From: Phyllosticta citribraziliensis
Lineage: Eukaryota
DNA: 64,000 bases
NCBI RefSeq assembly: GCF_038025025.1
Contig: NW_027117347.1
Location: forward strand, 868,001 to 932,000
Reading direction: 5' to 3'
The stretch's first letter is position 1. Every line of letters starts with the position of its first letter. Below the pieces are notes generated by a model. The model did no database searches. It was not told the DNA's origin and worked only from the letters and a program-made list of their open reading frames with translations. Below, in pieces: positions 9,041 through 46,266 of the stretch. Both the position numbers and the translations under genes were made by a program.

Positions 9041-9821
9041 GATGAACGGGTGCGCGACGCTCTTTGCGGAGTTAACGAGACTTACAGCTCAAGCTCGTCC
9101 GTCTCCGATGCCGGTAAGGTAGAATGGGGCGGAGCCAGGCCGGGCCGTGCTCTCTCGACGTCTCGACGGGCGGTATCCGTACGGGAGCGAGGGGAGGGGA
9201 GTGGAGGGGAGGGGAGGGGTGCGGTGTGACTGGGCCGAGAATGACGATGGCAGGCGGCGCACGGATGGTGTTGTTGAGTTTTCGTTGCTGCAGCGGCGGC
9301 GCGCTGACACGCAGGAATAATAATCGCGAGCGGGCGATTAGTAGGCTGGGCCGGGGCGGTAGGTAAGCAACAGCGTCGGTCGAGTCGCGATGGTGACTTT
9401 GGCTTGTTGGAGGCCCTGCACCTGCACTGCACCTGCATCGGAGGCCCGGCGGGATTTGCTCGATGGCTTCGGGGCGGCATTCGGGGTTGGGACCGGGACC
9501 GGGAGCGATGGAAGATGCGAGCGGAACTCTGGGTGAGGTGGACGAGCACCATTGTGTCATAGGGACCTGAGGTGCCCATGCCCAGCCGAAAAATCCTCAG
9601 CCCCGCCAAACCAATCGAGAGGCGTCTCGTCCATCCCACCTACCCGACCCGACCTCGACCTCTCCTCTCCGTCCACCTCTCTCTCTCTCTCGTCACCACC
9701 CCTCGCCCCAGCAACACCTCTTCCTTCGTCCAGAAGCCTCACCATGTAAGATCCCTGCCCAGAGCCCCATTCTTTACCCGTCCGCCTAAGACGACTGCGA
9801 GTGCCCGCCGTGGCCCCGTCT

Positions 9822-9827
9822 TATAAA
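9822..9827 (+). promoter_or_regulatory. TATA box of gnd1 followed by a CT-rich initiation tract
   Basis: TATAAA 145 nt upstream of the ATG at 9967, followed by a pyrimidine-rich stretch typical of strong filamentous-fungal promoters. Confidence 0.6.
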
Positions 9828-9966
9828 GCAAAACCGTCTGCTCCCGCATATCGGCCCTCCATCATCCCTCTCTCCTCTCCTCATCCATCTCTCACTCTCC
9901 TCTCTAATCCATTGACCCTCCTCCAGACCATCCGCCTCATCTCCACCTCCATCCCATCCAGCAATC

Positions 9967-11924
9967 ATGTCTTCCGCCGTGTAAGTCGCCCTCGCCCTCG
10001 CCCCCTCCCCCTCCCTACCCCGCCGTCCGGCGTCACGGAACCCCTCCATCTGCGGGTTCAGCTGAGCCGCCGTCGGCATTTGCTTGGATGCCGATTTCCA
10101 TTTCCCATCCTGTCGCCCCATTGACGAGACAATGAATCTAACTCCAGCGCGCGTCTCTCCCGCATCGATGTGGGAGGACCTGCGCGCACCGATGCTAGTG
10201 GTGACTGGGGTCTCATTGGTTTGGTAAGTTCAGCCCCGCAGTGCCCCTCCCTCATCGATTTTGCTCTAACAAAGTTTCCAGGCCGTCAGTAAGTCAATTC
10301 GCAGCTCGCATCCCTTGGGACCGCTTCTCACGATCCAACAGTGGGCCAGAACCTGATCCTCAACGCTGCCGACCATGGCTTCACCGTTGTTGCCTACAAC
10401 CGCACTGTTTCCAAGGTCGACCGCTTCCTTGAGAACGAGGCCAAGGACAAGTCCATTGTTGGCGCTCACTCCATGAAGGAGTTTGTTGCCAAGCTCAAGA
10501 AGCCCCGCAGGATGATGATGCTTGTCATGGCTGGCAAGCCTGTCGACGGTAAGGGACGGCACGAGCCGAGGCAGAGGGCTAGTTGGCTGACCATGTCCAG
10601 ACTTTATCGAGCAGCTCATCGAGGCCGGTGCCGAGCCTGGCGACATCATCATCGACGGCGGTAACTCCCACTACCCCGACACCAACCGCCGCACCAAGTA
10701 CCTGGCCGAGAAGGGCATCCGGTACGTCGGCGCTGGTGTTTCCGGTGGTGAGGAGGGCGCCCGCTACGGCCCCTCCATCATGCCCGGTGGTAACGAGGAG
10801 GCCTGGCCCTACATCAAGGACGTCCTCCAGAGCATCTCTGCCAAGAGCGACAACGAGCCTTGCTGCCAGTGGGTTGGTGACGAGGGTGCTGGTCACTACG
10901 TCAAGATGGTGAGTTTGGAGCTCCATCCGGCAGCCTCTGCAGTTACTTACCCAAACAGGTCCACAACGGTATCGAGTACGGTGACATGCAGCTCATCTCC
11001 GAGGCCTACGACATCATGAAGCGTGGTCTTGGTCTCTCCAACAAGGAGATGGGTGACGTTTTCGCCAAGTGGAACAAGGGTGTCCTCGACTCGTTCCTGA
11101 TTGAGATCACCCGTGACATCCTCTACTTCAACGACGACGACGGAACTCCTCTCCTCGAGAAGATCCTCGACTCTGCTGGTCAGAAGGGTACCGGCAAGTG
11201 GACCGCCATCAACGCTCTCGACCTCGGCATGCCCGTCACCCTCATTGGCGAGGCTGTCTTCTCTCGTTGCCTTTCTTCCCTCAAGTCTGAGCGTGGCCGT
11301 GCCTCTCAGCTCCTGTCTGGCCCCTCGCCCAAGTTCGAGGGTGACAAGCAGGCTTTCATCGACGACCTTGAGCAGGCCCTGTACGCCTCCAAGATCATCT
11401 CGTACGCCCAGGGCTTCATGCTTATGCAGAACGTGAGTTGACTGATTCATCAACTATCTGCCGGTTGCTAACAAGTTTTGCAGGCCGCCAAGGAGTACGG
11501 CTGGAAGCTCCAGAAGCCCGAGATTGCCCTCATGTGGCGTGGTGGCTGCATCATCCGCTCCGTCTTCCTGAAGGACATTACCAACGCCTACCGCTCGAAC
11601 CCCGACCTCGAGAACCTGCTCTTCGACGACTTCTTCCACAAGGCCATTGACACTGCTCAGGCTGGCTGGAGAAACGTCGTCAGCAAGAGTGCTCTGTGGG
11701 GTATCCCTCTGCCCGCTTTCAGCACTGCCCTCAGCTTCTACGATGGCTACCGCACCAAGGACCTTCCCGCCAACCTCCTCCAGGCCCAGCGTGACTACTT
11801 CGGTGCCCACACCTTCAAGATCAAGCCCGAACACGCCAGCGCCAAGTACCCCGAGGGCGAGAACATCCACGTCAACTGGACCGGCCGTGGTGGCAACGTC
11901 TCGGCGTCGACCTACAACGCTTAA
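9967..11924 (+). CDS. gnd1: 6-phosphogluconate dehydrogenase, decarboxylating (7 exons, 491 aa; possible 508-aa isoform)
   Basis: Exons 9967-9980, 10199-10223 (or 10148-10223), 10282-10288, 10342-10548, 10601-10908, 10959-11432, 11484-11924. Splicing restores [59 protein letters not shown]. Strong C-ending codon bias. Confidence 0.97.
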
Positions 11925-45015: not shown

Positions 45016-45182
45016 CTTGTCGGAGTGATGGATGAGCGCAACAAGGGAGGGGTCGAAGCAGAAGGGATGCAGCAGTGAGGGGGCGCGTCGAGGTGTGGAG
45101 GAGGGAGGGGGGGGGGGGGGAGTGGTTGGTGTTTATGTGGCGGAGCGGCTTAGAAGAAAGTCGTCGTGGTTGGCGTCGTGGT

Positions 45183-45227
<45 letters not shown>
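45183..45227. repeat. (CGG)15 trinucleotide repeat upstream of the ras2 ATG
   Basis: 15 perfect CGG units read directly, followed by AGG CGG CAG CGG. Confidence 0.95.
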
Positions 45228-46266
45228 AGGCGGCAGCGGGAGACGTGACGAAAGAAGCTTGGATCCTTGCGTCCAGGTGACAGGTGCACAGCGGGCAGAG
45301 ATGCGGTGCCGGCAGAAGAGGGACTAGTAGTCGGAGCACGAAAAGGCCGCGGCTGAAGGCTGCCACGTGTGGAATGGGCCCAGTTGGGTAGAGTCGGCTT
45401 GCAACGAGGGGCAAGCCGGAGTGGGAAGAGGAGGGTGGAGCGAAGACGGAGAGGGAGAGGAGGAAAAAGAAGAGAGGAGTGGTGAGAGAGGTGACAGGGA
45501 GGAGACGAGACGGGGGGAGGGCGGGGTTGGGCGGTCGGCAGTAGCTTGGTAGGTACAGTAGGTGAAGATGGTGTTGTCTTGGGCGTTGGTGAAGTCGGTC
45601 GGCTAGGGTAGGATGGAGGTTGGGGGCCCAGTTGCAATGGAGGGACTCGACGAGAGGAGAGTGAGCAACGAAGGAGCTGGGCGGTGGGATTAGGGTGAAA
45701 CGAAGGTGAGGAGAGTGGCGTGTAAGTACGACCTTTGGGCGCTGTGCGAGTCGAGAGGATGGCCGTTGTGGGCGGTGGGTGCAGGAGGGAAGATCTGGGC
45801 AGGGCGACACGTGAAAGGGCAAATGGGGACGGGGGGGACGGGGACGGGGACGGGGACGGGGAGCCAGGTGGGAGCAGTGTCCAGTGCGAGGGGAGGGGGC
45901 GCGTCCGCACTGGCCGTCAAGAAATTTTACGAAAGGAGATGTCAAGAGTGGGTAACTACCTTAGCGGACTGGGCTGGAGTGGAGTGGACTGGACGAGGCC
46001 AAGCAAGTGAAGCGAGAGACAATCCCCAGTCATGACAATCCGTCCGTCAGTCAGTCAGTCAGTCGGCAGGCAGGCAGGCGGGCAATCCACATGCAGGCAG
46101 CGCAGAGTGTTGAGGGGCAGGGGCAGACGAAGACGACTGGAGGGCAGAAGGGCAACACGGCCGTTCATTATTGTCATGATCAATTTTGTTATTATCATTT
46201 CGCCAATCCACCACCAGTGCAGTGCAGTCGACGACGGCAGGCAGTGCAGGAGTGCAGCTGGGGCAG

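What the first reader, a model, noticed from the sequence alone, without database searches (positions are those of the whole stretch)
10138..10198. gnd1 intron 1: hairpin between two in-frame 3' splice sites, predicting two N-terminal 6PGD isoforms
Seen: I find one canonical branch point, CTAAC (10138-10142), followed at once by CAG (10145-10147). The acceptor directly before the conserved GDWGLIGL exon is TAG (10196-10198), 51 nt downstream and in frame. The spacer folds into a strong hairpin: GCGCGC 10147-10152 with 10182-10187, GTC with GAC, and CTCCCGCA with TGTGGGAG around a TCGA loop. Its base includes the G of the proximal AG and it would bring the distal AG close to the branch point. 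Proximal use gives [26 protein letters not shown] (508 aa); distal use gives MSSAVGDWG (491 aa). Established: alternative splicing of Candida albicans GND1 yields cytosolic and PTS2-peroxisomal isoforms. Inference: an RNA-structure-controlled splice switch adding a targeting peptide. RLSRIDVGG starts like PTS2 (R-L-x5) but lacks the canonical H/Q-L/A end, so its function is open.
Basis: partly seen in the sequence, partly recalled or inferred. Interest (0 to 1): 0.7.

Follow-up and report, generated by a model that had tools for sequence, protein, structure and literature searches.

The report
Hairpin steering 6PGD intron splicing
In a fungal pentose-phosphate gene, a very stable RNA hairpin sits between the intron's branch point and the splice acceptor that is actually used, and the same bases encode a widely conserved but so far unseen 17-residue alternative N-terminal segment.

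Summary
The sequence features are real. Intron 1 of a Phyllosticta-type 6PGD gene has CTAAC (10138-42), a proximal CAG (10145-47), a distal in-frame TAG (10196-98) and a 41-nt hairpin between them (10147-87, -27.9 kcal/mol). That hairpin is the most stable 41-nt fold on the + strand of the window.

Spliced contigs from 4 of 4 public runs use only the distal acceptor. No proximal junction was seen, but contigs cannot show a ~0.1% isoform.

The 17-codon insert is annotated as protein in 56 models across Pezizomycotina, from Orbiliomycetes to Dothideomycetes. None fits the PTS2 consensus, because motif position 8 is Gly rather than His/Gln. Transcript-sized assemblies show only the short form.

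The synonymous bases of the insert are tuned for pairing (z -4.1 to -5.5 against synonymous recodings).

Best reading: this is a constitutive "downstream stem". It shortens a 57-nt branch-to-acceptor path to about 18 nt and buries two decoy AGs. It overlaps the Pezizomycotina counterpart of the known yeast GND alternative 3' splice-site event.

A regulated switch is not shown, and a thermosensor is unlikely. Covariation could not be tested because no DNA of relatives was reachable.

The parts
9700..9745 (+). 3' part of an upstream non-coding exon (5' UTR); the transcript starts left of 9700
   Evidence: Contigs of X1 and X4 join 9745 to 9927.
9746..9926 (+). 5' UTR intron (GTAAGA..CAG), not removed in every contig
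   Evidence: Joint 9745->9927 in X1 and X4. The X15 contig runs unbroken from 9883 to 9980.
9927..9980 (+). Exon 1 with the start codon 9967-69; it encodes the first four residues plus two bases of the fifth codon
9981..10198 (+). Intron 1 as actually removed (218 nt, GTAAGT..TAG)
   Evidence: Joint 9980->10199 in one contig each of X1, X2 and X15. Loose ends in X4 read the other side of the same joint.
10121..10125 (+). Second branch-point-like motif TTGAC, 23 nt from the proximal AG
10138..10142 (+). Branch-point consensus CTAAC. The branch A at 10141 is 6 nt from the proximal AG and 57 nt from the distal AG.
10145..10147 (+). Proximal candidate acceptor CAG; its G is the first paired base of the hairpin
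   Evidence: G10147 has paired probability 0.96 at 37 C. No junction to 10148 in any of the 4 runs.
10147..10187 (+). 41-nt hairpin: 5' arm 10147-64, loop 10165-68, 3' arm 10169-87 (17 base pairs, -27.9 kcal/mol)
10148..10198 (+). 51-nt in-frame segment (17 codons) that would be included if the proximal acceptor were used. It is conserved as peptide in relatives.
10174..10176 (+). Decoy GAG inside the 3' arm. Its use would shift the frame.
   Evidence: Paired probability 1.0.
10196..10198 (+). Distal acceptor TAG, the one used; predicted unpaired
   Evidence: Paired probability <=0.19.
10199..10223 (+). Exon 2 (25 nt), the start of the NADP-binding Gly-rich motif
10246..10259 (+). Segment of intron 2 complementary (13 of 14) to loop plus 3' arm 10164-77. 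It is a near copy of the hairpin's 5' arm plus loop.
10282..10288 (+). 7-nt micro-exon GCCGTCA between introns 2 and 3
   Evidence: The letters lie between the two sides of joint 10224->10342 in 4 of 4 runs. The CDS built with it equals P0003.
10342..11924 (+). Rest of the 6PGD coding region with three more short introns (about 10549-10600, 10909-10958, 11433-11483) and stop codon 11922-24

Best explanation
Intron 1 of this 6PGD gene is spliced almost entirely to the distal TAG. The only good branch point near it (CTAAC) lies 57 nt upstream. In the other six introns of the gene the branch motif sits 9-12 nt (5' UTR intron: 11 or 19 nt) from the acceptor.

The 41-nt hairpin between them works as a constitutive 'downstream stem' in three ways:
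- It folds 39-41 nt out of the path, so the branch A and the distal AG are about 18 nt apart.
- It buries the frame-shifting GAG and the G of the proximal CAG. That CAG is in any case only 6 nt from the branch A, which is too close for efficient second-step use.
- It leaves the TAG single-stranded.

The same bases are under a second constraint. Read in frame, they give a 17-residue segment conserved across Pezizomycotina. It sits where yeasts include a PTS2 through the proximal site. A rare long isoform (well under 1%) is therefore likely to be made.

Shown: the anatomy, the stability, use of the distal site, conservation of the peptide and tuning of the synonymous bases. Inferred: which branch point is used, that the stem is needed for splicing, that the long isoform exists, and what its peptide does.
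For: - Distal junction: 9980->10199 in contigs of X1, X2 and X15, and matching loose ends in X4 (4 of the 24 runs listed were laid).
- Branch-motif distances: 9-12 nt in the five short introns, 11 or 19 nt in the 5' UTR intron, but 57 nt in intron 1, with no YTNAY in its last 56 nt.
- Hairpin stability: z -3.27, 0 of 200 shuffles. No other 41-nt window of 21,320 is as stable.
- Pairing probabilities at 37 C: G10147 0.96, GAG 1.0, TAG <=0.19.
- Codon choice: with the peptide held fixed and synonymous codons redrawn, the mean MFE is -18.6 to -19.2 against the real -31.1. That gives z -4.1 to -5.5, with 0-2 of 2000 as stable under three codon models.
- Rare codons: 8 of the 17 insert codons are rare in the constitutive CDS (GCG 1/45 twice, GAT 1/33 twice, GTG 0/25, GGA 1/50 twice, AGT 1/33). 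The rare third bases of GCG, GTG, GGA and the first GAT are paired bases of the structure. The T of AGT is the first base of exon 2, and the AG of that codon is the distal acceptor.
- Peptide conservation: 56 annotated proteins give 51 distinct inserts, and 44 of the 51 are exactly 17 aa. Arg, Leu, Ile and Gly are invariant in a 20-sequence alignment. In the list the last insert residue is Ser or Arg, the only residues with AGN codons, as expected if the distal AG sits in that codon everywhere.
- Span of conservation: the conserved 13-residue block coincides with the hairpin span, and the next residues vary.
- Codon compatibility in relatives: the window's 15 in-insert pairs can all be formed in 20 of 45 distinct 17-aa inserts, and 14 of them in another 19. 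Permuted peptides average 11.4 pairs, and 5.3% reach 14 or more.
- Literature: downstream stems that lower the effective branch-to-3'ss distance are described in S. cerevisiae (PMC12350175, passages, citing Meyer et al. 2011). The GND alternative 3' splice-site event is described in PMC7491326 (section 10).
Against: - No branch point was mapped. A non-consensus branch nearer the TAG cannot be excluded.
- No DNA of relatives could be obtained, so true nucleotide covariation is untested. The codon-compatibility test shows only what is possible, on sequences related by descent.
- The proximal junction was not seen in any contig.
- All 24 transcript-sized database entries with an intact N-terminus carry the short form (my count).
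- All long forms come from genome annotation or genomic read-through. Gene predictors pick only in-frame inserts, so frame conservation is partly an ascertainment effect.
- Rare codons are also what an untranslated intron would show.
- The wider 231-nt region is not unusually structured.
Confidence: 0.55

Rival explanations
1. One reading: a regulated, RNA-structure-controlled switch between the two acceptors. It would respond, for example, to temperature or carbon source and add a peroxisomal targeting peptide on demand.
For: - Both acceptors are in frame.
- The peptide is conserved, with Arg, Leu and Ile at PTS2 positions 1, 2 and 5.
- A yeast precedent exists.
- A second, mutually exclusive pairing of the 3' arm with intron 2 (13 of 14 bases) lies only 3.8 kcal/mol above the hairpin state, with equilibrium share about 0.4%. 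Such an inverted repeat was found in 0 of 300 shuffles.
Against: - Only the distal junction appears, in 4 of 4 runs.
- The hairpin stays folded from 15 to 60 C in silico, with inner-pair probability >=0.957.
- The insert fails the PTS2 consensus at positions 8 and 9, and so do 53 of 53 insert-type relatives.
- No condition-dependent data exist.
Confidence: 0.15
2. The intron is purely constitutive. The hairpin is the only selected element, and the conserved 'peptide' is a shadow of a conserved RNA stem that gene predictors happen to translate. No long isoform is made.
For: - There is no transcript evidence for the long form anywhere.
- Peptide conservation coincides with the stem span.
- Codon usage of the insert is unlike the gene's.
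- The motif is not a PTS2.
Against: - A stem selected only as structure would be free to drift by compensatory changes. Here the primary sequence is kept from Orbiliomycetes to Dothideomycetes, and the length is exactly 17 codons in 44 of 51 inserts.
- The invariant residues fall on PTS2 positions 1, 2, 5 and 8.
- In yeasts the homologous segment is translated at about 0.1% and is reported as functionally important.
Confidence: 0.2
3. The insert is simply an alternative coding segment, a degenerate PTS2. The hairpin is an accident of this lineage with no role in splicing.
For: The consensus peptide of relatives is intrinsically self-complementary at the codon level, so some pairing comes for free.
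Against: - Recoding the same peptide synonymously almost never gives this stability (0-2 of 2000).
- It is the strongest compact hairpin in 64 kb.
- The distal acceptor has no branch motif within 56 nt.
Confidence: 0.1

Closest known systems
Alternative 3' splice sites of the GND (6PGD) gene in Candida albicans and other Saccharomycotina (Strijbis et al. 2012, cited but not held here; Hurtig et al. 2020, PMC7491326, section 10 read)
   Same: Same gene, with the intron just after the first codons. The proximal acceptor adds an N-terminal segment and the distal acceptor gives the major cytosolic form. The minor form there is only ~0.1% of mRNA, which would explain why contigs here do not show it.
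   Different: There the included segment is described as a PTS2 and junction reads were found. Here no junction was seen and the segment fails the PTS2 consensus. No hairpin is mentioned in the section I read.
Predicted but unconfirmed proximal 3' splice site in Aspergillus fumigatus GND (Hurtig et al. 2020, 'alt 3'?')
   Same: Same subphylum, same architecture and same absence of junction reads. Aspergillus models carry the same insert type as the window.
   Different: That paper calls the segment a PTS2. Its Supplemental Fig. 6 could not be read, so I cannot see which residues were meant. It makes no breadth or RNA-structure claim in the section I read.
[quoted passage not shown] 2011, recalled and cited in PMC12350175; passages read)
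   Same: A stable stem between a distant branch point and the used AG lowers the effective distance. The intervening AGs are structured and the used AG is open.
   Different: This is a filamentous fungus whose introns are otherwise ~50 nt. The stem is also an in-frame, peptide-conserved segment. It does not melt in the physiological range, unlike the APE2 thermosensor (recalled).
Cryptic PTS2 in the 5' UTR of basidiomycete pgd1, translated from a non-AUG start (Kremp et al. 2020, PMC7214817, passages read)
   Same: A minor N-terminally extended 6PGD isoform is made from one gene.
   Different: The mechanism there is translational and the motif is canonical. In the window no PTS2 is encoded in any frame of the spliced 5' UTR. 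Seven other Dothideomycete models do carry an upstream canonical or loose PTS2.

Membership tests
GND alternative 3' splice-site event | Intron directly after the first few codons, upstream of the Gly-rich NADP-binding exon | tested here: met
GND alternative 3' splice-site event | Two 3' splice sites in that intron, in frame with each other | tested here: met
   CAG 10145-47 and TAG 10196-98 are 51 nt apart with no stop between them.
GND alternative 3' splice-site event | The distal site gives the major mRNA | tested here: met
   Joint 9980->10199 in X1, X2 and X15, with matching loose ends in X4.
GND alternative 3' splice-site event | The proximal site is used in a minor mRNA | tested here: inconclusive
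   No such joint in the contigs of 4 runs. Contigs drop rare variants, and the raw-read test was not available.
GND alternative 3' splice-site event | The included segment carries a PTS2 | tested here: not met
   The window insert and 53 of 53 insert-type relatives fail both the strict and the loose consensus.
PTS2 peroxisomal targeting signal | Arg/Lys at position 1 and Leu/Val/Ile at position 2, near the N-terminus | tested here: met
   Arg and Leu are invariant in the alignment of 20 long forms and are present in the window translation.
PTS2 peroxisomal targeting signal | His/Gln at position 8 and Leu/Ala at position 9 (consensus as printed in PMC7214817) | tested here: not met
   Position 8 is Gly here and invariantly in relatives. 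Position 9 is Gly in the window.
PTS2 peroxisomal targeting signal | Pex7-dependent import | not testable with these tools
Localisation needs an experiment.
Downstream stem (branch point to 3' splice site) | Linear branch-to-AG distance well beyond the organism's norm | tested here: met
   57 nt, against 9-12 nt in the five short introns and 11 or 19 nt in the 5' UTR intron.
Downstream stem (branch point to 3' splice site) | A stable stem lies wholly between the branch point and the used AG and restores a normal effective distance | tested here: met
   The effective path of about 18 nt was counted by me from the structure.
Downstream stem (branch point to 3' splice site) | Unused AGs are sequestered and the used AG is accessible | tested here: met
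Downstream stem (branch point to 3' splice site) | The stem is conserved, with compensatory changes, in relatives | tested here: inconclusive
   Only a peptide-level proxy was possible. No DNA of relatives was obtained.
Downstream stem (branch point to 3' splice site) | Splicing depends on the stem (mutate and rescue) | not testable with these tools
   Needs an experiment.
RNA thermosensor of 3' splice-site choice (APE2 type, recalled) | The stem melts within the physiological temperature range | tested here: not met
   Inner-pair probability is >=0.957 from 15 to 60 C.

The most novel reading that the evidence does not exclude
A dual-coded element several hundred million years old. Thirteen codons have bases that form the stem steering 3' splice-site choice. 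Their rare translation yields a PTS2-derived signal with Gly where His/Gln normally sits.

A near copy of the 5' arm in intron 2 offers a second, mutually exclusive pairing, predicted at about 0.4% at equilibrium. That pairing would free the proximal CAG and so set or regulate the tiny share of the long isoform.
Probability: 0.12. Interest if true: 0.75.

Novelty: new variant of a known kind. Interest (0 to 1): 0.5.

Why it matters
Hurtig et al. 2020 left open whether the GND alternative 3' splice site predates the split between yeasts and filamentous ascomycetes. This locus bears on that question in three ways:
- The segment is conserved from Orbiliomycetes to Dothideomycetes.
- Its motif has changed at the PTS2 position usually regarded as essential.
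- In this genome it is also the strongest local RNA hairpin, placed exactly where a downstream stem would be needed.

Together these give a concrete, testable case of one sequence serving both as a splicing structure and as a rarely translated targeting-like peptide.

It also explains a practical annotation problem. Lasiodiplodia theobromae is annotated with both the 493-aa and the 510-aa form. Some Phyllosticta models miss the 7-nt micro-exon.

Tried and rejected
- Earlier findings were not open.
- No whole genome is held for the window.
- Rfam, 9600-10400, E<=1: 0 matches. Intron 1 holds no known RNA family.
- DNA of relatives, metagenome scan. An alignment limited to the insert could not be made, so the scan used a whole-protein alignment (A1). 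The tool chose the words IGLAVMGQ and KMVHNGIE, which are interrupted by introns in Pezizomycotina. The 80 loci kept (of 593 confirmed) were intron-less genes at 52-73% identity, and none was a Pezizomycotina genomic locus.
- DNA of relatives, prokaryote genome contigs. A scan with the window's read-through frame gave 600 pattern matches and none was confirmed. Nucleotide covariation therefore remains untested.
- No contig of the four laid runs covers 10130-10185. This is absence of cover only, not evidence of absence.
- The X4 fragment 10048-10129 (depth ~2586) ends in adapter sequence, as other X4 fragments do. I read nothing into its ends.
- PTS2 elsewhere: none in any frame of the spliced 5' UTR. 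One loose match in the unspliced 5' region is followed by an in-frame stop.
- Thermosensor idea: rejected.
- Literature. Strijbis 2012 is not held, and Supplemental Fig. 6 of Hurtig 2020 is not readable. Full-text searches found no paper describing a hairpin in a fungal 6PGD intron. Search 51, which asked for that combination, returned 0 papers. The library lacks most subscription journals.

Full report
**What is there.** The window carries a 6-phosphogluconate dehydrogenase gene on the + strand.
- Joining the exons by coordinates gives 491 aa, identical to database protein P0003, which a source names as from Phyllosticta citribraziliensis. That species belongs to Botryosphaeriales, Dothideomycetes.
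- The start codon is 9967-69, exon 1 ends at 9980, and intron 1 begins GTAAGT.
- The features named in the finding are all at the stated places: CTAAC 10138-42, CAG 10145-47 and TAG 10196-98, which is 51 nt on and in frame.
- Two items were missed. A second branch-like motif, TTGAC at 10121-25, lies 23 nt before the proximal AG. A third AG, GAG at 10174-76, lies inside the stem.

**The hairpin.**
- The 68 nt 10138-10205 fold at -31.1 kcal/mol. Dinucleotide shuffles give -21.5 +/- 2.9, so z is -3.27 and 0 of 200 are as stable.
- The same stem appears when the whole intron or a 231-nt context is folded. The wider region as a whole is not unusual (z -0.43).
- The core, 10147-10187, has 17 pairs around a 4-nt loop and folds at -27.9 kcal/mol.
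- Among 21,320 41-nt windows of the + strand of this 64-kb window, only the hairpin itself reaches that value. 77 of 9,134 68-nt windows (0.84%) match the longer stretch, and the top ones are a (GGC)n tract.

**Which acceptor is used.**
- One search listed 24 runs. I laid four of them from four studies (X1, X2, X15, X4), all as Logan contigs.
- One contig in each of X1, X2 and X15 joins 9980 to 10199. The short side is 26 letters because exon 2 is only 25 nt, but the same contigs continue through the later exons.
- In X4 there is no joint row. However, loose ends at 9980 and at 10199 read the first bases of exon 2 and the last bases of exon 1.
- No contig joins 9980 to 10148. The tool only guesses that these runs are RNA, but the contigs lack all the GT..AG introns.
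- Contigs drop rare variants, so this shows the major form only.

**Why the distal site needs help.**
- In the five short introns (50-58 nt) a YTNAY motif sits 9-12 nt before the acceptor. In the 5' UTR intron it sits at 11 or 19 nt.
- In intron 1 (218 nt) the last such motif is CTAAC, 57 nt before the TAG and 6 nt before the proximal AG.
- With the stem closed, I count about 18 nt between the branch A and the TAG (structure).
- At 37 C the predicted paired probability is 0.96 for the G of the proximal CAG, 1.0 for the GAG and <=0.19 for the TAG.
- This is the arrangement described for yeast 'downstream stems' (PMC12350175, passages).
- That an AG only a few nucleotides from the branch is poorly used, and that GAG is a poor acceptor, is established knowledge that I recall. 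It was not tested here.

**The insert is conserved as peptide.**
- A search with the read-through frame found two Lasiodiplodia theobromae models of 510 aa, among 14 candidates. They carry the same segment, with 15 of 17 residues identical.
- The same species is also annotated with the 493-aa short form.
- A search aimed at the long N-terminus gave 53 proteins among 346 candidates. By my count from the source column, 49 come from NCBI genome annotation.
- Pooling, 56 proteins hold 51 distinct inserts, and 44 of the 51 are exactly 17 aa.
- Going by the organism names the sources give, they span Aspergillus, Penicillium, Talaromyces, many lichen fungi, Pseudogymnoascus, Lachnellula (Leotiomycetes) and Arthrobotrys (Orbiliomycetes).
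- In a 20-sequence alignment the insert has four invariant residues: Arg, Leu, Ile and Gly.
- In the list the last insert residue is Ser or Arg, the only amino acids with AGN codons. This fits a distal AG embedded in that codon in all these fungi.
- The insert residues after the 13-residue block that spans the stem are variable.

**No transcript support for the long form.**
- By my count, all 24 entries that come only from assembled short contigs (jgi or lgn, up to ~3 kb) and have an intact N-terminus show the short form.
- The four non-NCBI long-form hits are genomic read-throughs (P0136, P0145, P0150) or a chimera (P0140).

**Is it a PTS2?**
- The consensus printed by Kremp et al. (PMC7214817) needs His/Gln at position 8 and Leu/Ala at position 9.
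- The window insert and all 53 insert-type N-termini fail this consensus, and also fail a stricter form that I recalled.
- Seven other Dothideomycete models carry a fitting motif in an upstream extension instead.
- A yeast-like metagenome locus (L001) has a fitting motif at the homologous place.
- The Pezizomycotina segment therefore looks like a PTS2 relative that has Gly at position 8. Whether it still targets anything is open.

**Structure versus coding.**
- Holding the peptide fixed and redrawing synonymous codons for 15 codons gives a mean MFE of -18.6 to -19.2, against the real -31.1.
- That is z -4.1 to -5.5, with 0-2 of 2000 as stable, under uniform, gene and intron-composition models.
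- Eight of the 17 insert codons are rare in the gene. Most of their third bases are paired in the stem.
- Mapped onto relatives, the window's 15 pairs are codon-compatible in full for 20 of 45 distinct inserts, and 14 of them for another 19. Permuted peptides average 11.4 pairs.
- This shows only that the stem could exist in relatives. The sequences are related by descent, and their DNA could not be fetched.

**Comparison with the literature.**
- Hurtig et al. 2020 describe exactly this event in yeasts. The proximal site includes a PTS2 and the distal site gives the cytosolic form. The proximal form is ~0.1% of mRNA in C. albicans.
- They flag an unconfirmed proximal site in A. fumigatus.
- The isoform idea is therefore a new member of a known event.
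- The hairpin overlapping the conserved segment, and the non-canonical motif, are the new parts. My searches found no description of them.

**A possible second state.**
- Bases 10164-77 (loop plus 3' arm) are complementary in 13 of 14 positions to 10246-59 in intron 2.
- Such an inverted repeat occurred in 0 of 300 approximate dinucleotide shuffles.
- Forcing this pairing costs only 3.8 kcal/mol, with a predicted equilibrium share of about 0.4%.
- It would free the 5' arm and the proximal CAG. This is a lead, not a finding.

**Verdict.** The best reading is a constitutive downstream stem that enforces distal splicing. It overlaps a conserved in-frame segment that is probably included only rarely. 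A thermosensor is unlikely, and regulation is untested.

Noticed in passing
window 10282-10288: A 7-nt micro-exon (GCCGTCA) between two ~55-nt introns is supported in 4 of 4 runs. Some Phyllosticta models in the database miss it: P0011 lacks one residue there, and P0009 starts after it.
   Followed up: partly
window 9700-9980: There is a 181-nt 5' UTR intron (9746-9926), spliced in X1 and X4. The X15 contig is unbroken from 9883, which suggests a second 5' end or intron retention. The spliced leader is open in the ATG frame back to 9537, without any ATG or PTS2.
   Followed up: partly
window 10164-10177 and 10246-10259: A 14-nt inverted repeat (13 of 14) links the hairpin's loop plus 3' arm to intron 2. 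The intron-2 copy is a near duplicate of the 5' arm plus loop. The alternative fold is 3.8 kcal/mol less stable.
   Followed up: partly
window 10048-10129: Run X4 holds an intron-1 contig at depth ~2586, where exon contigs read 25000. It is followed by adapter sequence. This may be unspliced RNA or a lariat remnant.
   Followed up: no
protein P0140: A 279-aa entry from a 1-kb ENA contig fuses PAS and ABC-permease domains to the 6PGD long form, exactly within the conserved insert. It looks like an assembly chimera at a shared word. The same short peptide word seems to occur in bacterial sugar-permease proteins (this last point is recalled).
   Followed up: no
L001:2496-2560: A yeast-like metagenome contig has an ATG followed at once by a canonical PTS2. 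A TACTAAC box plus TAG lies inside that coding stretch, at the position homologous to the window's distal TAG. This may be another way of making two isoforms.
   Followed up: no
proteins P0029, P0055, P0068, P0070, P0073, P0107, P0114: Other Dothideomycete 6PGD models carry a long upstream extension with a canonical or loose PTS2 instead of the insert. Within one class, two different routes to an extended N-terminus are therefore annotated.
   Followed up: partly
window 45140-45245: A (GGC)n tract gives the lowest folding energies in the window. It is a simple repeat, not a designed hairpin.
   Followed up: yes
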